This document shows, piece after piece, positions 3,176 through 53,033 of a stretch of 64,000 nt of DNA. Numbering within the stretch: the stretch's first letter is position 1; each line of letters opens with the position of its first letter. Both the position numbers and the translations under genes were made by a program. The DNA is taken from IMG/VR virus record IMGVR_UViG_3300030339_000005; one strand, written 5' to 3'. The notes below the pieces were generated by a model. The model saw nothing but the letters and a program-made list of their open reading frames with translations. It ran no database searches and had not been told where the DNA came from. The DNA comes from a virus. Taxonomy: Duplodnaviria > Heunggongvirae > Uroviricota > Caudoviricetes.

Positions 3176-4606
3176 TTAAACTTCTTCAATAATAAATGAT
3201 TTGTAAGGTGCAAATGCAGCAATACCAGAATAACCAGCTACGATCAATTTAGATCCTGCTACTGGGCTAGATACGATACCACTTGTGATACCATCTACTC
3301 CACCAACACCTGGGTATTTAGAAGTAACGAATTCAGCTCCTTGAAGAGTGAATGCAGCAATTGCTGGTTGATTTGTAGAAATATCCGGAGACATGTCTAA
3401 GCAAATACCATAACCTTTTCTATCGTATTCTTTTGTAAGAGCACGATCCACCATGAAAGTAACCATATTACCGGCAATTTCATAAGATGTAAATGTTCCA
3501 CCAACTTTAATAGGATTATCAGCTTTAACCATTGATTGCGTAGCTTTTGAATACATAACCGTTGGAGTTGATCCCCATAATTTTAACCAGTCACCCAGTG
3601 TTGAGTTAATTTGACCCCATAATCTATCATTTACGATAAATGTATAGCTATTACCTGTAGCATTTGCAGCTTTTTGGTTCATTTGATCAATAACTGTGTT
3701 GATTACATTTACGTTAAGTTTAGCGTATTTGTATTTAGAAGCAAATCTTTCGATTTGAGGAATAAGACCATCACCAGCAATCAAAGGACGTCCATCTTCA
3801 GTTAGAACTGTTGATTTACCATTAATATCCATGGTTGATTTACCTCATAATAGGTGATTGTTTTTAACTGTATTAAAGTTTTCTAACAAATCTTTTTCCA
3901 TTTTATTTAATTTGAAAATCTTTTCTTTAAGTTCGCCTGCGCCATCGCCTTCAGCAATTTTAATGAATTGATCTTCCATCTGAGCGTAACGAGCAGAATA
4001 AGAAATGTCATTTCTATGTTCTGTAATCCACTGACGATGTTTTTCAATGTTAGATTGATATTTTGTATATCCTTCTTCATGGTATTCAGGCATGATATTT
4101 GACAAGAATCTTGTCGTCATTCCTAATTGACATGCTGTTGAGTCTAATACTGAAGAGAAATCACTGTCAATTAATTGAGCAGTATATTCCCAGAAGTTAT
4201 CTGCTTTTCTGGTTGGGGTTGCTTTTACAATGCATTGCTGACGTGAGCCATCAATTTTGAAAGTATCATATTTTTCATAATATCTTTCTTTAAAATACAT
4301 TGTGATATCTGCTCCTCCTGCGCCATTACCCGTAGGTGCGGCTGCAAATTCGATTCTTTTAACGAATTCAACATCAATTTCCCATTCGATCATGAGAGAA
4401 TTAATTGGTTGAAATTTGTTAGCAGTTTTCGAGTTATAATAAATGTTCATTAAGGCTTCTGTTAAGAAGGTCGCTGTATTATGTGTATACATGCGAGCCA
4501 TAACTCCCATTAATTTAGGTCTTGTGCCTAAAAGTTTGTAGAAATCTTCATAAGTTCTACTATGAGCCAATTCAGGCTTTACGTTAACGTAACTTGCTAC
4601 TACCAT
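3176..4606 (-). CDS. putative major capsid protein, about 476 aa, one in-frame TGA at 3845-3847
   Basis: ORFs 3176-3832 and 3845-4606 same frame 12 nt apart; size and position after scaffold-like gene; no homology search done. Confidence 0.45.
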
Positions 4607-37817: not shown

Positions 37818-37913
37818 TGGCACGGGTATCAGGACTCGAACCCGAATAATGAAGTTTGGACCTCCACGTGTGGTTTTGAAGACCACTTCTATTCCCAATA
37901 GGAAAGTACCCGC
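37818..37913 (-). tRNA. suppressor tRNA reading UGA (anticodon UCA); long variable arm, G73 discriminator, encoded CCA, irregular D-arm
   Basis: Minus strand GCGGGTA...GTGGT-CTTCAAA-ACCAC...TGGAG-GTCCAAA-CTTCA...TCGGG-TTCGAGT-CCTGA-TACCCGT-G-CCA; 7-bp acceptor, 5-bp anticodon stem with loop CUUCAAA, canonical T-arm. Confidence 0.6.
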
Positions 37914-38392: not shown

Positions 38393-40204
38393 ATGCCAAA
38401 ACTATTAATCAATAAATCAAAGGAAAGACAAATTGCTCCGCCTGATAATATTGTCTCGCCAAATAAATTTGTTATACCTGAGGCTAAAGTATTAACTAAG
38501 ACACCTATAGGTCAAGGAATACGAATGAATTATGTGGATGCTAGTAAAGCTCCATATCAGGATCGTTATGCTGCAGAAAAAGAAGCACAAATGGCAAGAG
38601 CAAATGCTCCACTAGAAAATGTATATCCAGAATTTGATATTATTACTATGGCTGGCGGATTAGGAGAAGTAGGCAAATCTTTATTACAGAATACTTATAA
38701 AATTAATCCTCTTGCTAAGAGAGTTGTTGGGGAAGGAGATTTCTTAATGAATCCAAAACCTAATTGACTTACAGGATATAAAGTAGCACCAACTCTTGAC
38801 GATATTATTGCTCGAAATCAAGGACTTAGACCTAAGTTAAATAAGTTATTAGTTAAAGATCGTGGTATGGTGTATGGCAATGATGAAGCTTTAGTAAATT
38901 CTGCACCTATAGCATATGAAACTCATCCTAAAGGTGAGATGATTCTATATCAAGACATGGCTAATCCAGCACATCATTTCTTTGATGCTAATATGCCAGG
39001 CCAACCTTTACAAGCAGGAAGATCTTTTAATAGATTAATGACTAAAGTTCCTGTAGATGGTTATGTTGAAGAGGCTGGGACATTAAGTTTAGATGCCCTT
39101 AAGACAACTCTTAAACAAACTACAAAACCTGGCTTTAAAGGTGAATTACCTGGCACTAAAATTTCCTTAAATAATTCTGCCTTTATAAAGAAGCTGCCTG
39201 GTACTATTGATAATGGTAAAAGTCCTATTACATTTGACTCTTATTTTAAAGCAAGGGCTGGAGCTAAAGAAGTTACTAAGATGTATCAAGAATTTGGATT
39301 TCCTAAAGCTAAAGCCACTTTATATAGAAGTAATATGGATACTCAGTTTGGAATTAATGTTCCTAATATTCGTTTATCTCGAGTTCCACCAGTTAAAGAT
39401 GTATCAGGAATAACTTTAGAAGATTTTAAGAAAGTTAATTGATATAAAGAGTTAACCGCTATTCCTAATGGCGCCGCTAAAAATGCAAGAACACTTCTTG
39501 GAGAAGTCCAAGATCGTTTAAGAACTCCTGAAGGAATTCGTCGAGCTAAATCATTGGGAGTGGATTCTAGAGATTTAAATAGTAGTGTTGTAATAGATAG
39601 TTATTTAAGTCCAGCCTATCATGGTACAACTTCAATTGGAAATGGAAATGTTTTTGGCATTAGTCCAATATTAAAGAACCCAGATGTTCGTCCTATTATG
39701 CGACATGAAATTGAACACTCTTTCCAAAAGGTTAATAGTTTAGATACTAAAATGCCTACAGTTATTGATGATATATTAAAAGACTTAGAACTACAAGAGC
39801 CATTAAAAAATGTAACTCAATTAGAAAAGGCTCCAACATTAAAACAAGAGTCGTATCTAACTAAGTTACGAAATGATGAAAATGCCGCAGATTATTTTAA
39901 TTTTGGAAATAGGAAAGGGCCTTCATTAGAAAGAGCGCCTATGTTAGCAGAAGTGCAACAATATGCTTTAGATCAAGGATTAACAAAGCACCCATATGAT
40001 CCAGTTACACCTGATAAAGTTAGAGAAATATTTAACTTCTATCAATCTTCTCCCAAAGAATTTCCATTAAGAATCTTTAATATAATGCAGCCGTCAGATA
40101 ATAATATGTATACTATAGCTAAAGGATTGAATAGAATGTTATCTGTTCCTGCAGCTGGTTTAGCAGCCAAAACATTAATACCAAAAAAGAAAGCCGAGCA
40201 GTAA
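38393..40204 (+). CDS. HExxH zinc-metallopeptidase-like protein, about 603 aa, plus-strand, two in-frame TGA (38765-38767, 39440-39442); ends TAA
   Basis: ORFs 38393, 38867, 39554 share a frame with open gaps; motif PIMRHEIEHSF. Confidence 0.55.
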
Positions 40205-44493: not shown

Positions 44494-44798
44494 ATAATTT
44501 TATCAATTTTGGTTGAGTGTTAAAAGAGTAAGTGGTCTAGCAATCCTTATTCTACACTCACCAAAAATTGTATAATCACAAGCTCTCATTTTCAACCCAA
44601 TAAAATTCGCTATATCATAATGAACACAAATGATTGGATGGTTGCCATATAATAACTGATTAAAAGTTTGTCAGTATAATCTAAAAAGAATCGCAAGGCT
44701 AGTGCTATGTTTGAAACAACATAAGCAGCTCAACTTGAAAACTCAGCATAACTGAGTGCAAAGTAAAAATATTATCAACCAACTTAAACTCAGCTAAA

Positions 44799-46276: not shown

Positions 46277-46522
46277 ATGAAACAATTCAATAATCTTCAT
46301 ATCAAAGAACTCACAGGTTTTACTAGTGAGACTATCGTTGCCTCTTATGCTTTTGTTATAGATATGAAGACAACAAAATCTGCTCGAATCATCATTCTGA
46401 ATTCTATCAATGTATTCCGTCAGCTCTCATCAATATTAGTTGTTGAGAGGGATAACGTTGCTGTTTACAGAACACACTCTTTGCCTAAGGCTCTCAAAGT
46501 CTATAACGCAATTATACATTAA
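46277..46522 (+). CDS. hypothetical protein, 81 aa
   Basis: ORF track; 1-nt spacing. Confidence 0.4.
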   Translation: MKQFNNLHIKELTGFTSETIVASYAFVIDMKTTKSARIIILNSINVFRQLSSILVVERDNVAVYRTHSLPKALKVYNAIIH

Positions 46523-47658
46523 AACAATCCTGGTGATAAATGGTCTTAGCTGAGTGCCAAATATCTTTATTCGCAATATGCGTTACAGGAGGCTCATACG
46601 ACAACATCCAATCGTCGAGAACACTACACGCGCAAACAATATTTTTGAATGAAATGAATGAAGAACGTGATGTAGCCGTGTAAGTCGGCAGTATTTGAAC
46701 TAGATAGTTTAGTGCTAATTTTCAAGTCCTACTGGGTATGCTCATATTGAGTACGGTAATGATACTAGAGATTGGTTAAATAGCTAGTTCTTGGGTAGGG
46801 CAAACACACACGTAGTGGTGGTGAACACTGATAGAGGTAAAAAGGCTCGGGATGGGGCTACATTTGTCGGCAGTGGAGTTAATGGCATCCTATTGCTCCA
46901 TGTATTAAAGTCCGGTCTGAAGACACCTTCCTTACCCATTCCCATTTCTCTCCACAATTAATCAAGACACGAAGTCTGACGACGATTCGCCTTGGATCAC
47001 TTCACTAAGATACTTTGCTAAAGCCGAGTAGCTCAGAGCGTGGAGTATGGAGAGAGAAATCTCATTTAGTTGTACGCAACTACACATAGTAAGAATGAGG
47101 TACGAAACGTATTAAATTGTAGCGGTAGATTTAAGGCTTAGGATAAGTCCTTATCTAAAAGTATGTCTTTGACATATATACTAATTCAGACAATTAAGTA
47201 GTACGCAATATCACCACTATGTGATGAACTTTTAAGCTAGTTTTTAGAAAACAGCAACCATTGTAAACCACCGGCGCTGCAAGCTCGGACTCGGATAGAT
47301 GGAACGGTGTGATTCCCAATGCGCTAATTTGTTGAGATACTATCATGTTTGGATTATTCTGGGTAATGTTAATTCATTCTTGGGATGGACAAGACCACGA
47401 AATTCGCGGTGGCCATGATTGATATGTGGCGAGCAATTCTCAACAACCTGTGGTGGCCCATTTACTTGCGCCGATCTCCACAATGCGTTTGGCAGTCGAT
47501 TAACATTCTCTAACGAGTCTAAACATCCTCTCCCTGACACCGTTAAGCCGGGACCAGCTGCTGTAGTCATCCATCGATCTCGTGCGCTTAGCATGAGCCC
47601 ATCCTTGGATGACCGGCAGTTTTTAGTTGCCACTTCAAACCTAAAACATGTTGCCTAT
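46523..47658. other. 1.1-kb ORF-poor, GC-richer region with many stem-forming segments and a tRNA D-arm-like motif at about 47021-47045; candidate structured ncRNA or decayed tRNA array
   Basis: No credible ORF on either strand; TAGCTCAGAGCGTGGAG motif; repeated GTCGGCAGT. Confidence 0.3.
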
Positions 47659-48270
47659 ATGATTAAGATTGGATTTACCCCTCTTGAACAAGAACTCATG
47701 AAAGAGTATAATGCAGCTAATCGCTTGCATCTGCTCTTTATCCAACACCCTGAATGCGAAGAAATGATGCGTAACACAATTGAAGAACACTTTACTTGTG
47801 CTACTTTTGAAAACATCAAAGCTCGCGTTGTTGGTGTCCTTACTGGCGAAATGAATCGCCTTCATGGTACTAAGTGTCTAATCAATGATACCTTAACAGG
47901 TGTTATTCGTGCAGGCGCAGCAGTATCTGTATCATTTTCCTTTAACGAATCAGGTGATTACGAATTGGAACTCTATGTAGATACTGCGAATAAGTATACC
48001 TCTCGTATGTACAAGGTGAGCGAACTAACTATTGATGAATCCGTGTTGACAATTGCCAAGGTGGTGATTGGACAATATTCTAGTTACGCAGACTGTATTC
48101 GTGACCTAAGGCTACAAGGTTGTAAAGATCTTGGTTGGCTAAATTCTGATAACTTCACAATGCCAGCGGGCGCACACTTCACAGTGGCTTATCACACGGA
48201 TCGTGCTAAGTCGGACGTGTATTGTGATGTAATTCGGAGATTGTATTATTCAGTGGATGAAGGCGACTAA
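47659..48270 (+). CDS. hypothetical protein, 203 aa
   Basis: ATG at 47659 (MIKIGFTPLEQELMKEY...) in frame of ORF 47419-48270; upstream part looks noncoding. Confidence 0.45.
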   Translation: MIKIGFTPLEQELMKEYNAANRLHLLFIQHPECEEMMRNTIEEHFTCATFENIKARVVGVLTGEMNRLHGTKCLINDTLTGVIRAGAAVSVSFSFNESGDYELELYVDTANKYTSRMYKVSELTIDESVLTIAKVVIGQYSSYADCIRDLRLQGCKDLGWLNSDNFTMPAGAHFTVAYHTDRAKSDVYCDVIRRLYYSVDEGD

Positions 48271-48282
48271 TCGTTTAATACT

Positions 48283-48714
48283 ATGACTAAGACACAATTC
48301 AAAATCATGGCTGGCGTTCTATTGACACTAGCCATGGTTGCTTTAGTGGGATGCAGATCTCAAAAAAGCAACGAAACTCAAATCATGGAGTTGTTTAATG
48401 CTTATGATTATCATACAATTGATATGTCACCAGCAATCAATAACTTTCAACTTGAGTTTATTGAGGGCAAGTTAACTGTCCTGGACTCAACCCAATCTCG
48501 AGTGAATTCCACATCATGTGATTTTCATCAGAGCCGGTTTACCTACGTAGTATCATGCCGTAATGAGGCTTTCCTCATAAAGCAAAATCGACACAGTTTG
48601 TTATTCACCTTTCCAGATAGTATCTTATTAGGTGGAAGAATTTACTTTAAAAACTCGTGGGCTCAGCCCGATGGACATCATCAAAACAGCTCAGTGCTAG
48701 CCTTAGGATCGTAA
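48283..48714 (+). CDS. lipoprotein, 143 aa (signal peptide with lipobox LVGC)
   Basis: MTKTQFKIMAGVLLTLAMVALVGCRSQ. Confidence 0.5.
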   Translation: MTKTQFKIMAGVLLTLAMVALVGCRSQKSNETQIMELFNAYDYHTIDMSPAINNFQLEFIEGKLTVLDSTQSRVNSTSCDFHQSRFTYVVSCRNEAFLIKQNRHSLLFTFPDSILLGGRIYFKNSWAQPDGHHQNSSVLALGS

Positions 48715-48784
48715 GATCTACATACCTCTAACGAGGATGATGAATGCACACTATTGCCCGCGTAATCGTATCCGTGGGCACCTT

Positions 48785-48881
48785 TTGACAGTAGCTCAGC
48801 TTGGTTAGAGTGCAACATGGACAAAATCCTTGAGGAGTTTGGTCTATGTTGAGGTCACAGGTTCAAATCCTGTCTGTCAAT
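48785..48881 (+). ncRNA. tRNA-like element with canonical acceptor stem, D-arm and T-arm, but the anticodon arm replaced by a ~17-bp hairpin with a 4-nt loop
   Basis: TTGACAG-TA-GCTCAGCTTGGTTAGAGT...CAACATGGACAAAATCC-TTGA-GGAGTTTGGTCTATGTTG-AGGTC-ACAGGTTCAAATCCTGT-CTGTCAA. Confidence 0.5.
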
Positions 48882-49522
48882 CAATATTATAACAATTACT
48901 ACCAGTTCCATGGCGGACCGAAGGATGCTATCTGGTAGGGTAACTCTTGCACGTACGGGGCAAGGGAGTCAGATTATTGTTATTGTTTTCTTTAGCGTGC
49001 TGCTAGCTTCACTAGGCTCAGTAGACAATAGAGAGAGCATAAATCCCCGACGCAGCTTTTAGGGACTTATTGCGCTAGCTGCTATGACAACCACTCCAGG
49101 TTGAAGTGCGTGAAACTCGTAACTTACAAATCTATGGCATTCTAAACCATGAGGATTTGTAATCCGTAACAAGCCCTGCCCACATGATGGGATTTGCGCA
49201 AGAGTCGGACCTATAAAGCAAAGTAGATACAACTTGAAGAGAGCCTATGAATTCCTTCTCTTGAGGGTGAAAAGGTGGAAATATTATCATAACCTAGGAA
49301 GTGTGGTACTAAAGTAAATGTAATCTAATGTGTCAATTCATACCTGCATTAGTGCATTTGTTTTTGCTTTTAACTATTAGAAAGGACGTGATCATCGTCG
49401 TATCCCTAAGCAAGGAGAAAAACTGCAGTTACAGGTTGGGCGTCTTTAGATTATATCTAAGGAAGTCCTCATAGAAGTCAGCGATGCGCAAGCTAGCTGT
49501 GCCCAGTAACAAAAAAATTCTG
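48882..49522. other. 640-nt noncoding stretch between two tRNA-like elements; candidate large structured RNA
   Basis: No ORFs of 60 aa or more; several local hairpins, e.g. CTTGC-N9-GCAAG. Confidence 0.3.
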
Positions 49523-49593
49523 GTTGGGGTGTCGTCTAGTGGTTAGGACGGGCATCGCGAGCTAAACATGGGTTCGAATCCCAGCTCCTCCTC
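49523..49593 (+). ncRNA. second tRNA-like element or fragment: D-arm (TCGTC-TAGTGGTTAG-GACGG) and T-arm (TGGG-TTCGAAT-CCCA) present, no anticodon arm or clean acceptor pairing
   Basis: GGTTGGGGTGTCGTCTAGTGGTTAGGACGGGCATCGCGAGCTAAACATGGGTTCGAATCCCAGCTCC. Confidence 0.35.
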
Positions 49594-49691
49594 AAAGTCA
49601 GAGACCTCGAAAGAGCTCTGTGCCAGAACTCATTAAAATCGTTTATTTGTGTGGTCACATGGTGCAACACGAATGGACTTAGTGAAGTATA

Positions 49692-50012
49692 TTGAACAAA
49701 ATCTATAAAATCATGAAAAATACTAAAGAATTATTGCAGCTGGTTCTTAAAGAACTTGAGGAGGGTGAACTTTTTACCTCTGGATTGTGCATGTTAGTTG
49801 TTAATATGAAAGGTGCTAATGTATTTACTTTTAAAGAAGAAATGCAGATGTATCATTATATTCACAAGTATGGCGCACCAAAAAGGTTTACAAAACGTGC
49901 ATCTGATCAACGTGGTTCTGCTTATTACTGGCCCATGGGTCAGAAAGCTCCCAGAATTGCTTGGCTTAAGAGAAGAATTAAATGGTATAAATTCCTAAAT
50001 CATATAGTATGA
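49692..50012 (+). CDS. hypothetical small protein, 106 aa; paralog of next gene
   Basis: ORF track; ATGA overlap with next gene; shared Y-W...APR..WLK..I motif. Confidence 0.5.
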   Translation: MNKIYKIMKNTKELLQLVLKELEEGELFTSGLCMLVVNMKGANVFTFKEEMQMYHYIHKYGAPKRFTKRASDQRGSAYYWPMGQKAPRIAWLKRRIKWYKFLNHIV

Positions 50013-50320
50013 ATACTCCAAAAGTATTATTTCAATTGTTGTTAGACAACGTTGATATGATTGCAAATGAATGTCCTGGATTATGCTCATTAATTCATGC
50101 TTTATGTCGCAAAGGATATATTGATCCAGAAGAATCAAACTTTCTATTTGATGTAATATATGATCATGCTCCAAGATGGTACATGCTTCGATATTATGTT
50201 GAAGATGGTATGTTTCAAAGACGTGATTGGGATAATGCTAAGAACTATGCTTTCTATTGGAAGAAACATTCAGTGGCTCCAAGAAAAAGGTGGTTAAAGA
50301 AACAAATTGCTAAGCTATGA
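50009..50320 (+). CDS. hypothetical small protein, 103 aa; paralog of previous gene
   Basis: ORF track; ATGA overlaps at both ends. Confidence 0.5.
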   Translation: MNTPKVLFQLLLDNVDMIANECPGLCSLIHALCRKGYIDPEESNFLFDVIYDHAPRWYMLRYYVEDGMFQRRDWDNAKNYAFYWKKHSVAPRKRWLKKQIAKL

Positions 50321-50538
50321 AAAGTTTAATCTTTGAAGCTCGGCTAATAGCCCTTGGTCAATACAAAAATCTTGATGAGTGTTTGTCTGATTTACATCAG
50401 CAAAATGCTGTTGAACTTAGTGGTAATAAACCATTCCTTCCCAAGGCAGTATTTACTTGTGCATATAAAGATCCAAAAGGAGAAATATGTGTATATGTTG
50501 ATTGCTATTATGGATTGTTTTACACTGTAAACAATTAA
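50317..50538 (+). CDS. hypothetical protein, 73 aa
   Basis: ORF track. Confidence 0.4.
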   Translation: MKSLIFEARLIALGQYKNLDECLSDLHQQNAVELSGNKPFLPKAVFTCAYKDPKGEICVYVDCYYGLFYTVNN

Positions 50539-50816
50539 GTATGTTTAAAATTATCAAATTCTTAGACAAGATCTCTATTTGGACTGATGATGCAAATCAA
50601 ATTTTCAACATAGAATACCGTTATACAAAATTTGTGCCTTTATTACCTAAAGAGCATCTTATTGAGTTAAATTGCTTTGAAAGCGAGTTGTGGATAGCGG
50701 CACAACACAATCGTTACCAGTTTGAATCAAAGCTCAAAGAAAGCTTTGTTCCTGAACTTACTATTGCTTACTTAAAACAAGTGCATAGTAGACTTCAAAC
50801 AGTAACATCTGAATGA
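50502..50816 (+). CDS. hypothetical protein, 104 aa
   Basis: ORF track. Confidence 0.4.
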   Translation: MLLWIVLHCKQLSMFKIIKFLDKISIWTDDANQIFNIEYRYTKFVPLLPKEHLIELNCFESELWIAAQHNRYQFESKLKESFVPELTIAYLKQVHSRLQTVTSE

Positions 50817-51020
50817 TCTCTGTGTTTTCAATTATAAGGTGCAATCGTGAGATTGCTTTTCAATTGTCATAGGCATTGTCTATGATATACAAAAGGTTAG
50901 GTCGTGATGGCGTTGTGAAACGAAATCACCTCATCAAGGTTAGTAATCCTTGACAACGAAAGTGGGGCTGGTATTAGATTCTGGAAACAGTACTAAACAT
51001 GAAAATGTAATCTAAACTTA

Positions 51021-51557
51021 GTGCGGAGAATATGTTATTTAATTGGAAAACACATGACAGTAAGAGATGAAATTATGAAAATCTGTCTCAATGAAAGATT
51101 GGAAGGGCTTGACTTTGTAAAAGCTGTTGAGAAACAGTTAAAAGAAGTGTGCCCTTATAACCATTCTTTAGAAGGGACTTCTGAAAGCTGTGGAATTACA
51201 GGTGAATCTATGAGATTTGCTTTGGATGCTAATGGCAAAGTTTCAGAAGTAATTGAGCGTATCGAAGACCAGGCAACAAAAAGAGAATTAGCATTAGCTA
51301 ACTTCCATCTCTTAATTGAGGCTGGCAAAATTCCTGACCCAAGGAAAAGTAAATCTAGTCTGAATCAATTCGTAGCTAGTATTATGGGACAAAGAAAATC
51401 CTCAGTCCATTCTATCTCTAGCAGAGATATGCCTCCTGAGTTATTAGACATGTTATCAAAGCTTGCAGGTCATGAAGATGAGAATGAAGATCCTGATTGT
51501 GATGACGGCGAATGTTGGAAATGTTCTAAACGTGATGGCTGTAAGAAAAAGAAATAA
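51021..51557 (+). CDS. hypothetical protein with acidic, Cys-rich C-terminus (CDDGECWKCSKRDGCKKKK); start may be at 51053
   Basis: ORF track. Confidence 0.45.
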   Translation: MRRICYLIGKHMTVRDEIMKICLNERLEGLDFVKAVEKQLKEVCPYNHSLEGTSESCGITGESMRFALDANGKVSEVIERIEDQATKRELALANFHLLIEAGKIPDPRKSKSSLNQFVASIMGQRKSSVHSISSRDMPPELLDMLSKLAGHEDENEDPDCDDGECWKCSKRDGCKKKK

Positions 51558-51902
51558 AAGTTTTTGGTAACAACCACTGAGAGGTAACCAACCCAAAGTT
51601 AAAAAGCGAGTGCCCCTAGACTCGAGACTATCGGCAGCAACTGACAGCATAATATCCCTTGGTAAAGGATGGCTGGCACCAAGAACTTTTACCTAGTTGG
51701 ACACTTAGTTCAACTAGTCGCCTATTAGATAGGGAATCTGCAACAGGCGTAATACATACAAGCGAGTATGTTAATCGTGCGGAAATAGCAGACAAAGAAC
51801 GTGTGAGAAGCATGGATAAAGTTTTTATTAGATTTATGATTGCCCACCTTGAAAACCTGCGAAGGCAAGTAGAGGTTTCTTTGAAACCTAATACACAAAT
51901 AT

Positions 51903-52139
51903 ATGTCGCCATCCATTCTAATTATTGCAAAGGATTATGAACTGTTAGTTGATTCTCTTATGTGTCATATTGGTTTAGACCAATCTCTGATTGTAAAGAT
52001 TCGACCTGCAATTCATCCAACTGTAACCAATCATTATCAGGAACTTATTCGAAAGAATTATGTTAAACGCCTCTCTATTGTGGGCGGAGAATTTCTGTCG
52101 ATTGCATTAGACTCTGGATATGAGGTGCAATTGAAATAA
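51903..52139 (+). CDS. hypothetical protein, 78 aa
   Basis: ORF track. Confidence 0.35.
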   Translation: MSPSILIIAKDYELLVDSLMCHIGLDQSLIVKIRPAIHPTVTNHYQELIRKNYVKRLSIVGGEFLSIALDSGYEVQLK

Positions 52140-52202
52140 TGTTTTAGGTTCCGAACTGGAGATAATATCAAAGGGGAGGAACCTAATCTAACTTAACATC
52201 CT

Positions 52203-52499
52203 ATGACAAAAAAGGACCTGATTGAAAAACGAACAAACTATGAAAGCCTCATTATCAAAATGATTAATGAGATTGAAAGTGGTGCCCAAGACACTATTAT
52301 TGGTATCTGTATGCGAATCACAAATAACCCACGTGATTTACTAAACTTATTTAACTATTTATTTCATTGGTACATGATGTTGAAACATAACTCTGTTATA
52401 ATTTCAAGTGATGCTACCGAGTTGGGTTACAAAAATGAATTTAATTTAAGCACTGAACAAGTGCCGTTTCTTCAGCAAATTTTGATCACTGATAAATAA
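52203..52499 (+). CDS. hypothetical protein, 98 aa
   Basis: ORF track. Confidence 0.4.
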   Translation: MTKKDLIEKRTNYESLIIKMINEIESGAQDTIIGICMRITNNPRDLLNLFNYLFHWYMMLKHNSVIISSDATELGYKNEFNLSTEQVPFLQQILITDK

Positions 52500-52526
52500 C
52501 TTTTTGTCAATTAAACCTAAAACAAA

Positions 52527-53033
52527 ATGACTAAGAGCCCTTCTTCAACAGCTTTTCAAATTTCATCAGCTGTTAAACTCCTTTCTAATTTGGATAAAAA
52601 AGACTTTGATGCTAAATCTCTAACTAAGATGCTTCAAAGTGCTGGTTGTCCATACATTCAAGCTGTGCAACCTGCTTTAATTGTATCAGGGTATATTGCC
52701 AAGTTTCGCCCGAAGCATGGTGTGCCTTATTATAATTTTACAGGTAAAACTGCCTACATCAATGACTTTATTGATATGGCAGCAAAAGCTCGTGGTTCTG
52801 CGACTACAGCTACGAAAAAGTCAAAGAAAAAACTTGCACTTGTTGAAATTCCAACTGAAGATCTGGTAACAGAAATTATGTTGAGAGTTGAGAAAGTGGA
52901 GGATCTTCTCATGGATGGCCCACTCAAGCAATTGTTTGGTGAATTTTGTAAAAGAACTAATTGTGAAGTATTCCAAAAGACTCCTCCACAATATGGTTTA
53001 TTACCACCATCCTATCAACAAGTAAGATTTTAA
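52527..53033 (+). CDS. hypothetical protein, 168 aa
   Basis: ORF track. Confidence 0.45.
   Translation: MTKSPSSTAFQISSAVKLLSNLDKKDFDAKSLTKMLQSAGCPYIQAVQPALIVSGYIAKFRPKHGVPYYNFTGKTAYINDFIDMAAKARGSATTATKKSKKKLALVEIPTEDLVTEIMLRVEKVEDLLMDGPLKQLFGEFCKRTNCEVFQKTPPQYGLLPPSYQQVRF

What the first reader, a model, noticed from the sequence alone, without database searches (positions are those of the whole stretch)
48715..49690. About 1 kb of noncoding sequence bracketed by tRNA-like elements: candidate large structured RNA
The interval lacks ORFs on both strands and is richer in G+C than the flanks. It carries tRNA-like elements at both ends (48785-48881, 49523-49593) and several local hairpins. Large ornate phage ncRNAs of the GOLLD and ROOL type are typically 0.6-0.8 kb and sit next to tRNA genes in phage genomes. 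This locus has that layout. This is a hypothesis only.
Basis: inference. Interest (0 to 1): 0.5.

Follow-up and report, generated by a model that had tools for sequence, protein, structure and literature searches.

The report
Intergenic patchwork with tRNA look-alikes
This 1-kb gene-free, G+C-rich stretch of a roughly 178-kb bacteriophage genome is real and holds a well-folded tRNA look-alike that cannot decode, a decayed second one and short conserved RNA or regulatory blocks, but the evidence points to separately evolving modules (most likely RNA-processing signals), not one large ornate RNA of the GOLLD/ROOL kind.

Summary
Window 48715-49712 has stops in all six frames, even if any one stop codon is recoded. 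Its G+C is 0.43 against a window mean of 0.33. It is flanked by a strong tRNA-like element (el1, 48785-48881, 49.5 bits) and a sub-threshold one (el2, 49525-49592, 24.8 bits).

The GOLLD/ROOL reading is not backed. Sensitive Rfam scans gave no hit to any large RNA or intron model. The 643-nt spacer folds no better than shuffles on the + strand. The parts are conserved separately:
- el1 has homologues in related phages.
- el2's T hairpin plus a GAAA-capped trailer hairpin recurs in one relative, in a different gene context and order.
- Only 49105-49375 is conserved, in one other relative, where it abuts a gene start.

el1 belongs to a small clade-specific set of tRNA-like genes. Their acceptor, D and T arms are kept with compensatory changes, but the anticodon arm is 10, 10, 28 or 39 nt. 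Neighbouring intergenic gaps in this clade carry hatchet, hammerhead and pistol ribozymes.

Best reading: a composite intergenic region whose tRNA-like modules act as RNase P/Z cleavage signals in a polycistronic transcript, plus a conserved regulatory or RNA block. This mechanism is inferred, not shown.

The parts
48756..48786 (+). G+C-rich hairpin (GCCCGCG / 10-nt loop / CGUGGGC) followed by ACCUUUU. It looks like a terminator or a 3'-end-protecting hairpin of the upstream 143-aa gene. Its U run overlaps the first two bases of el1.
   Evidence: Sequence read directly. 48715-48784 folds at z -2.8 on the + strand against -1.0 on the - strand. The consensus terminator scan did not call it because the loop exceeds 8 nt.
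48785..48881 (+). el1, a tRNA-like gene with an expanded anticodon arm. Acceptor 48785-91/48874-80, D arm 48794-811, T arm 48857-73. The 5-bp 'anticodon' stem (48813-17/48847-51) encloses 29 nt instead of 7, extendable to a 10-bp stem with a 19-nt loop. No CCA is encoded.
   Evidence: Rfam tRNA 49.5 bits with a 28-nt insertion. ARAGORN calls 'tRNA-Cys(aca)' only by assuming an intron. Fold z -3.1. Homologues in L036/L040, L166 and L165 keep the acceptor, D and T helices, with 11 of 16 pairs compensatory.
48882..49104 (+). Lineage-specific spacer with local hairpins (for example 48899-48938 and 48944-48968). No homologue was found.
   Evidence: z -2.1 on + against -0.5 on -. No nhmmer, blastn or tblastx match in 37 related loci.
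49105..49375 (+). Block conserved with relative L165 (1160-1585). It has small hairpins at 49107-49200, with a variable-length tip and compensatory pairs. It also has hairpin 49237-49270, an identical 29-mer (GAAAUAUUAUCAYAACCUAGGAAGUGUGG, 49278-49306), promoter-like hexamers (49261-49290, or TAGGAA-N18-TGTAAT), and a possible closing helix at 49215-22/49363-70. It could be a regulatory region or an RNA domain.
   Evidence: nhmmer E 1.6e-10 and 3e-4; 73% identity over 165 nt, which matches the 70% nt identity of the AAA ATPase gene. Five compensatory pairs and several G-U pairs favour the + strand. The 29-mer is unique in the window. No excess folding energy. In L165 the block ends 20 nt before a start codon.
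49376..49524 (+). Unconserved spacer with a hairpin (UUUAGAU-UAU-AUCUAAG).
   Evidence: z -1.5 on +. No homologue.
49525..49592 (+). el2, a degenerate tRNA-like element. It has a canonical D arm (CGUC/GACG) and T hairpin (49569-49583), no anticodon stem, and two acceptor mismatches.
   Evidence: Rfam tRNA 24.8 bits, below gathering 29. Not called by ARAGORN. The T hairpin is conserved in L036 with one compensatory pair.
49593..49626 (+). Conserved trailer of el2: AAGUCAGAGA, then a 10-bp hairpin with a GAAA tetraloop (49597-49623).
   Evidence: Conserved with L036/L040 544-649. Two compensatory pairs in the hairpin.
49627..49712 (+). A+T-rich leader of the next gene (ATG at 49713).
   Evidence: G+C 0.31. 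ORF 49713-50012.

Best explanation
The region is a composite intergenic segment inside a rightward, multi-gene transcription unit of a ~178-kb bacteriophage. It is not one RNA gene. In order, it contains a hairpin at the end of the upstream gene, an anticodon-less tRNA-like module (el1), about 220 nt of lineage-specific structured spacer, and a 270-nt block. Next come a short unconserved spacer and a decayed tRNA-like module whose T hairpin and GNRA-capped trailer hairpin are conserved (el2). The 270-nt block is conserved with the nearest relative and looks like a promoter or operator plus leader, or a small RNA domain. Proposed mechanism (inferred): the tRNA-like modules keep only what RNase P, RNase Z and the CCA enzyme recognise, namely the acceptor-T minihelix and the D/T elbow, with no encoded CCA. 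They would therefore serve as host-nuclease cleavage signals that cut the polycistronic RNA, as tRNA punctuation does in mitochondria and as t-elements and mascRNA do. This would play the same role as the self-cleaving hatchet, hammerhead and pistol ribozymes in neighbouring intergenic gaps of this phage clade. They are probably exapted remnants of the large tRNA array that more distant relatives carry at this position. Shown here: the anatomy, the noncoding status, the conservation and covariation of the modules, their independent distribution, and the ribozyme neighbourhood. Inferred: transcription of the region, cleavage by RNase P/Z, and the regulatory role of the conserved block.
For: Noncoding and G+C-rich. 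The el1 cloverleaf scores 49.5 bits, but 29 nt lie between the anticodon-stem strands. Five related elements keep the acceptor, D and T helices: 91% of cells are paired, 11 of 16 pairs are compensatory, and 0 of 500 shuffles reach this. Slid controls give 26-44% paired. Anticodon arms are 39, 28, 10, 10 and 17 nt. None encodes CCA, whereas the genome's genuine tRNA(UCA) does. L166 6312-6378 is near-syntenic with el1. Modules are independent: el2 and el1 are reversed and 2.8 kb apart in L036, and the block stands alone before a gene in L165. The same gene block carries ribozymes: Hatchet in L165 (83 bits), with a syntenic weak hit in the window at 50930-51034. It also carries RAGATH-1 hammerhead in L166 and L167 and Pistol in L044. 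More distant relatives have 10-22 tRNAs upstream of the same DUF2828-family gene. The literature proposes that ribozymes process polycistronic transcripts (PMC6765202).
Against: There are no transcript or cleavage data. Each module has only one to four homologues, so covariation is thin. The five tRNA-like elements could descend from different functional tRNAs, in which case their 'compensatory' differences were inherited and not selected after anticodon loss. The punctuation idea does not explain why about 640 nt lie between the two modules, nor why the el2 trailer hairpin is conserved. The conserved block has no thermodynamic signal and could act purely at the DNA level. One member (L166 17916) lacks an acceptor stem.
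Confidence: 0.45

Rival explanations
1. One large structured noncoding RNA (about 0.65-0.85 kb), analogous to GOLLD or ROOL, either bracketed by or including the tRNA-like ends. It could be released from the precursor by RNase Z after el1 and RNase P before el2.
For: Gene-free, 10 points richer in G+C than the genome, and tRNA-like at both ends. The + strand shows hairpins with z -2 in 48882-49104. A 270-nt interior block is conserved as strongly as a core gene, with a few compensatory pairs. No degraded ORFs.
Against: No Rfam large-RNA or intron hit at E<=10. Whole-spacer z is -0.6 on the + strand. The conserved block folds no better than shuffles. The flanks and interior are not co-inherited. 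In L165 the block abuts a start codon. 220 + 150 nt of the spacer have no homologue anywhere searched.
Confidence: 0.15
2. Evolutionary debris: decaying pseudogenes of a former tRNA array plus neutral spacer, with no present function.
For: Distant relatives have large tRNA arrays at the equivalent place, while the window's clade has none. el2 is sub-threshold with broken stems. Most of the spacer is unconserved.
Against: Against phages whose conserved ATPase is only 60-67% identical, ordinary intergenic DNA is unalignable. Yet the el1 D and T arms are essentially identical and its stems stay paired. The el2 T hairpin plus trailer and the 49105-49375 block are also retained. Damage is confined to the anticodon arm, not spread randomly.
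Confidence: 0.15
3. The tRNA-like RNAs act in trans as protein-binding mimics. They could be Y-RNA-like partners of the phage DUF2828/DUF7788 protein (PHROG 850 'RNA-binding protein', window 58305-60047), or decoys or substrates for host tRNA-binding enzymes or defence nucleases.
For: The top half of the tRNA is conserved without an anticodon. In L165 and L166 a tRNA-like gene lies 0.3-1 kb downstream of the DUF2828-family gene. That protein matches a PHROG annotated as RNA-binding. From my own knowledge, bacterial Y RNAs (YrlA) contain tRNA-like modules.
Against: No Y-RNA family hit in Rfam. el1 has open acceptor ends, unlike the closed, permuted YrlA layout. The protein could not be linked to Ro60: there was no PDB sequence hit, even with a profile, and the single-sequence model failed at pLDDT 36. 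Anticodon-targeting nucleases would not be decoyed by RNAs that lack an anticodon loop.
Confidence: 0.1
4. el1 is a working tRNA whose 22-nt insertion is an intron, or whose enlarged loop still decodes (ARAGORN: Cys, ACA).
For: ARAGORN call and a high tRNA score. The phage appears to recode UGA and carries its own tRNA(UCA).
Against: No 7-nt loop with U33 can be drawn. The insertion forms a plain helix extension with no bulge-helix-bulge and is far too short for a group I intron. This differs from the archaeal intron-containing tRNAs recovered. Homologues have 10-nt mini-arms or an 18-nt loop and share no anticodon. No CCA is encoded.
Confidence: 0.05

Closest known systems
GOLLD, ROOL and HEARO large ncRNAs of phages and bacteria
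   Same: Phage genome, gene-free, G+C-enriched, next to tRNA-type genes, on the coding strand.
   Different: No covariance-model match. No 0.6-0.8 kb unit is conserved across relatives. No global folding signal. The flanking and interior pieces occur separately in relatives.
tRNA-like processing elements (mitochondrial tRNA punctuation, plant mitochondrial t-elements, MALAT1/mascRNA)
   Same: A cloverleaf top half with acceptor, T and D arms intact, an anticodon arm that is reduced or aberrant, and no CCA encoded. It sits between genes on the sense strand, where RNase P/Z cleavage would separate RNAs.
   Different: Those systems are eukaryotic or organellar and have been shown experimentally. 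Here cleavage is only inferred, the setting is a bacteriophage, and the anticodon arm is enlarged in el1 where those elements have it reduced.
Phage tRNA arrays and phage pseudo-tRNAs
   Same: Same genomic neighbourhood as the arrays of distant relatives. The D-loop, variable-loop and T-loop sequences are those of ordinary class I tRNAs.
   Different: Only two elements, and neither can decode. Selection is visible on the top half only.
Self-cleaving ribozyme-rich phage loci (hatchet, pistol, twister/hammerhead 'RAGATH' neighbourhoods) and theta (HDV-like) ribozymes 3' of phage tRNAs
   Same: The same gene block in this clade carries hatchet, RAGATH-1 hammerhead and pistol ribozymes in its intergenic gaps. 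el2 has a conserved structured trailer directly 3' of a tRNA-like element, as theta ribozymes do (PMC10879173).
   Different: No ribozyme model hits inside 48715-49712. The trailer is a simple GNRA hairpin. Drawn by hand, it has no partner for a P2 helix and no cytosine at the first J4/2 position, so it does not fit the HDV fold.
Bacterial and phage Y RNAs (YrlA) with Ro60/Rsr
   Same: A noncoding RNA with a tRNA-like module that is not a tRNA. A candidate RNA-binding protein is encoded about 9 kb away.
   Different: No Rfam hit and no Ro-binding stem formed by the RNA ends. The layout is that of a normal tRNA, not a permuted one. The protein's relation to Ro60 could not be established.

Membership tests
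GOLLD / ROOL / HEARO | Match to the family covariance model | tested here: not met
   Rfam 15 cmscan at gathering on the whole window gave 0 hits. The E<=10 scan with lax filters on 48400-50000 returned only the two tRNA matches and three chance matches to small RNAs at E above 1. Scans of 46400-52600 and 37000-64000 gave none.
GOLLD / ROOL / HEARO | A 0.5-0.8 kb unit conserved as a whole, with multi-stem covariation | tested here: not met
   Only 270 nt is conserved, and in one relative. el1, el2 and the interior occur separately.
GOLLD / ROOL / HEARO | Phage or prophage location next to tRNA genes | tested here: met
   Phage context: PG-binding protein, DnaD-like protein, relatives in IMG/VR, and ~178-kb contigs. 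tRNA-like elements lie at both ends.
Group I / group II intron | Match to the intron covariance models, and interruption of a host gene | tested here: not met
   No hit at E<=10. The flanks are not halves of one gene.
tRNA (el1) | Cloverleaf with acceptor, D and T arms and conserved D/T-loop residues | tested here: met
   49.5 bits against gathering 29. Covariation across five homologues.
tRNA (el1) | 5-bp anticodon stem closing a 7-nt loop with an anticodon | tested here: not met
   29 nt lie between the stem strands and fold into a 10-bp stem with a 19-nt loop. Homologues have 10, 10 and 28 nt.
tRNA (el1) | 3' CCA and aminoacylation | not testable with these tools
   CCA is not encoded. Addition and charging need experiments.
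tRNA (el2) | Reaches the Rfam gathering score, with paired acceptor and anticodon stems | tested here: not met
   24.8 bits, below 29. The alignment marks non-standard pairs in the acceptor stem and one in the T stem, and the anticodon stem is absent. ARAGORN is silent.
tmRNA (standard or permuted) | tRNA-like domain plus tag reading frame detectable by ARAGORN or Rfam | tested here: not met
   None in the window, although relatives L011 and L036 encode tmRNA.
HDV-like theta ribozyme | Nested double pseudoknot with a catalytic C at the first J4/2 position, directly 3' of a tRNA | tested here: not met
   No HDV-family hit. Drawn by hand, the trailer is a single hairpin followed by UGUGC, with no P2 partner. 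The published RNArobo descriptor itself was not run.
Bacterial Y RNA (YrlA) | Ro-binding stem formed by the 5' and 3' ends, plus a tRNA-like module, encoded next to rsr | tested here: inconclusive
   No Rfam hit. The layout is not permuted. The Ro60 relationship of the DUF2828-family protein could not be resolved.
tRNA-like processing element (t-element / mascRNA type) | Intact acceptor-T minihelix and elbow, with a dispensable anticodon arm | tested here: met
tRNA-like processing element (t-element / mascRNA type) | Cleavage by RNase P at the 5' end and RNase Z at the 3' end in vivo | not testable with these tools
   Needs end-mapping RNA-seq or in-vitro cleavage.

The most novel reading that the evidence does not exclude
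A previously undescribed class of phage noncoding RNAs. One form would be anticodon-less tRNA mimics, with mini (10-nt) or maxi (28-39-nt) anticodon arms, that work together with a tRNA-flanked ~640-nt RNA released by RNase P/Z. The other would be these mimics acting in trans on a host or phage tRNA-binding protein. One supporting hint is that the enlarged el1 loop (UUGAGGAG, 48830-37) is complementary to the el2 tail (CUCCUCAA, 49588-95). A 6-bp counterpart (AAGACA/UGUCUU) sits at the homologous columns in the L036 phage, so the two modules might pair.
Probability: 0.15. Interest if true: 0.75.

Novelty: new variant of a known kind. Interest (0 to 1): 0.42.

Why it matters
If the tRNA-like modules are host-nuclease cleavage signals, this phage clade would use two interchangeable ways of cutting its long transcripts. 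One is self-cleaving ribozymes and the other is tRNA mimics recycled from a lost tRNA array. That would give a testable function both to orphan phage ribozymes and to the 'pseudo-tRNAs' that annotation pipelines either miss or mislabel. Here ARAGORN calls el1 tRNA-Cys and misses its relatives entirely. It also warns that G+C-rich, gene-free, tRNA-flanked intervals in phages are not automatically GOLLD/ROOL-like RNAs.

Tried and rejected
- **Rfam:** gathering and E-value scans of the region, of 27 kb around it and of relatives gave no large-RNA, intron, riboswitch or ribozyme hit inside the region.
- **Coding potential:** six-frame stop counts, TGA-as-sense ORFs and tblastx in codes 11 and 4 against 37 related loci and the rest of the window found nothing.
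- **Repeats, iterons and intragenomic copies:** none of note.
- **INPHARED phages by blastn:** no match.
- **Flanking proteins as anchors:** the 143-aa, the 99-aa and the L165 203-aa proteins have no relatives beyond their own phage.
- **DNA patterns for the el2 trailer, for el1 and for the 29-mer in IMG/VR:** the first two found only the L036-type phage and the 29-mer pattern found nothing. A mini-arm pattern also found nothing.
- **The 29-mer pattern in GTDB genomes:** one chance hit, L169, with no further similarity.
- **Further AAA-ATPase relatives:** the contigs were too short upstream.
- **el1-loop/el2-tail pairing:** a duplex scan found many better chance partners, so it is not significant on energy grounds.
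- **Ro60 test of the DUF2828-family protein:** no PDB sequence hit even with a profile, the alignment was not accepted for AlphaFold, and the single-sequence model was unusable.
- **Theta/HDV fold for the el2 trailer:** rejected by hand.
- **tmRNA, including permuted forms:** rejected.

Full report
**What the window is.** The flanking proteins occur, 100% identical, on contigs of 178,281-178,286 bp in several metagenome assemblies. The 1.9 kb around the finding is identical in all ten copies fetched. Gene content points to a large bacteriophage: a PG_binding_1 protein, a PD-(D/E)XK nuclease, a DnaD/HTH_36 protein, a MoxR-type AAA ATPase and a DUF2828/DUF7788 protein. The nearest INPHARED relative is Leptolyngbya phage Lbo-JY46, at 45% identity for one protein. 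Genes left of about 43,300 run leftward and those to the right run rightward, so the finding lies inside the rightward block.

**Checking the observation.**
- From the stop at 48714 to the ATG at 49713, every frame holds all three stop codons.
- The genome carries a tRNA(UCA), and a neighbouring ORF has two in-frame TGAs. I therefore repeated the ORF search with TGA read as sense. The longest frames (98 and 138 codons) overlap the tRNA-like element and have no relatives by tblastx in code 11 or code 4.
- G+C is 0.43 against a window mean of 0.329, which puts the region in the top 2.5% of windows of that size.
- The element at 48785-48881 matches the Rfam tRNA model at 49.5 bits. The element at 49525-49592 matches at only 24.8 bits, below gathering.
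- Local hairpins exist, and they are concentrated in 48715-49104 on the + strand.

**Testing the large-RNA reading.**
- Rfam 15 gave nothing at gathering thresholds. At E<=10 with lax filters on the 1.6 kb, it returned only the two tRNA matches and three chance matches to small RNAs at E above 1.
- The 643-nt spacer folds at z -0.6 on the + strand. The - strand gave -2.8, but from 20 shuffles only.
- To find relatives I used neighbouring conserved proteins as anchors. This gave 33 IMG/VR loci and nine further loci from closer relatives found through the AAA ATPase.
- The nearest relative overall shares only 67% identity in that ATPase, so ordinary intergenic DNA is unalignable.

**Three pieces of the region have homologues, each in a different place.**
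1. *el1.* It matches L036/L040 3438-3523: the D and T arms are the same, four acceptor pairs are changed compensatorily, and the anticodon loop is 18 nt. Related elements that ARAGORN does not call occur at three further sites:
   - L166 6312-6378, near-syntenic with el1, where the anticodon arm is GUC-AAAU-GAC.
   - L165 16047-16113, where the arm is GUA-GAAA-UAC.
   - L166 17916-17983, with a 17-nt arm but no acceptor 3' strand.
   
   Across the five, 91% of cells pair and 11 of 16 pairs show double changes. No shuffle out of 500 reaches this, and slid controls fall to 26-44% paired. One caveat applies. If the five descend from different tRNAs, part of this covariation is inherited and was not selected after anticodon loss.
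2. *The el2 T hairpin and the following AAGUCAGAGA-hairpin(GAAA)-UGUGC trailer.* They are conserved in L036/L040 544-649, with three compensatory pairs. There, however, the element lies 2.8 kb upstream of the el1 homologue, three genes sit between them, and a different gene lies upstream.
3. *Block 49105-49375.* It matches L165 1160-1585 (nhmmer E 1.6e-10; 73% identity, like the 70% of the ATPase gene). This includes an identical 29-mer, five compensatory pairs in small hairpins, and a helix whose tip varies in length. In L165 the block has no tRNA-like flanks and ends 20 nt before a start codon. It contains promoter-like hexamers and shows no excess folding energy.

The remaining 220 + 150 nt have no homologue anywhere I could search. 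So the 'brackets' and the interior are separate modules.

**Context.**
- In more distant relatives, the 10 kb upstream of the DUF2828-family gene holds 10-22 ordinary tRNA genes. The window's own clade has none there, only these aberrant elements.
- The same rightward gene block in the clade is dotted with self-cleaving ribozymes in intergenic gaps: Hatchet in L165 (83 bits), RAGATH-1 hammerhead in L166 and L167, and Pistol in the L036-type phage.
- The window has a weak hatchet-like match at the syntenic gap, 50930-51034.

**Mechanism.** The selected features of el1 and its relatives are the acceptor-T minihelix, the D/T elbow and the absence of encoded CCA. From established knowledge of tRNA processing, these are the features that RNase P, RNase Z and the CCA-adding enzyme recognise. 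The anticodon arm is free to shrink or grow. The elements sit between genes on the sense strand, next to gaps that hold ribozymes. Such ribozymes have been proposed to process polycistronic transcripts (PMC6765202). I therefore consider it most likely that the tRNA-like modules are exapted remnants of a tRNA array now serving as cleavage signals. In this reading the conserved block is a regulatory region or leader, or a small RNA domain. This is inference, since there are no transcript data.

**Rivals, in order of weight.**
- A released ~640-nt RNA.
- Functionless debris. This is contradicted by the retention of the modules at a divergence where neutral DNA is unalignable.
- Trans-acting tRNA mimics, such as Y-RNA-like partners of the DUF2828-family protein. 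I could not test this, because the profile search of the PDB was empty and the single-sequence model failed.
- A genuine intron-containing tRNA. This is contradicted by the lack of any drawable anticodon loop and by the mini-arm homologues.

**Verdict.** The specific GOLLD/ROOL-type interpretation is not supported, although structured, selected RNA elements are present. What is there is a new variant of known kinds: tRNA-like elements, in a phage neighbourhood rich in intergenic ribozymes. Interest is moderate. It would rise if end-mapping showed RNase P/Z punctuation or a stable tRNA-flanked RNA.

Noticed in passing
window 37818-37913 (-) and 38393-40204 (+): A tRNA with anticodon UCA has a SeC-like 5-bp D stem with a 4-nt loop, a long variable arm and an encoded CCA. 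It scores 38 bits against the tRNA-Sec model, below gathering. It lies next to a 603-codon reading frame with two in-frame TGA codons (38765, 39440) that ends in TAA. Some public gene calls already read this frame through. This suggests UGA recoding of at least some genes.
   Followed up: partly
window 50930-51034 (+); L165 4874-5004: A hatchet-ribozyme-like sequence (32.8 bits, below gathering 51). P1 and the core UGGGGC/GUGC are present, P2 pairing is missing, and the 3' end overlaps the next start codon. It sits in the gap syntenic with a strong Hatchet ribozyme (83.4 bits) in relative L165.
   Followed up: partly
L166 2963-3028, L167 3280-3346, L044 10491-10552: RAGATH-1 hammerhead matches (44-50 bits, just under gathering) and a Pistol ribozyme (41.6 bits, above gathering) lie in intergenic gaps of the same rightward gene block in related phages. 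The window's syntenic gap, 44494-44798, gave no hit.
   Followed up: partly
window 46522-47419, core 46823-46913; L165 4052-4144: A second G+C-rich (0.41) stretch with no called gene contains a 95-nt block 86% identical to relative L165. It is predicted to form two hairpins, with G-U changes only. No Rfam match. A further conserved noncoding island lies at window 51720-51790, matching L165 6186-6256.
   Followed up: partly
L013-L032 (IMG/VR relatives), upstream of the DUF2828-family gene: Arrays of 10-22 tRNA genes. Several class I isoacceptors carry long variable arms (Pro 92 nt, Lys 88, Asn 87, Arg 88, Thr 83). CUA and UCA suppressor-type tRNAs are also present.
   Followed up: partly
L011 12922-13279; L036/L040 17646-18052: Phage-encoded tmRNA genes in two groups of relatives. 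None was detected in the window.
   Followed up: no
window 48830-48837 and 49588-49595; L036 about 3471-3476 and 587-592: The enlarged el1 loop (UUGAGGAG) is perfectly complementary to the tail just 3' of the el2 T hairpin (CUCCUCAA). The L036 phage has a different 6-bp complement (AAGACA/UGUCUU) at the homologous alignment columns. A duplex-energy scan finds many better chance partners, so this stays an unexplained coincidence or a weak lead.
   Followed up: partly
window about 49031 (locus L004 end): One 158-kb assembly of the same phage (ERZ27250296 k141_902737) ends inside the region. This could reflect strain variation or a coverage break at this locus.
   Followed up: no
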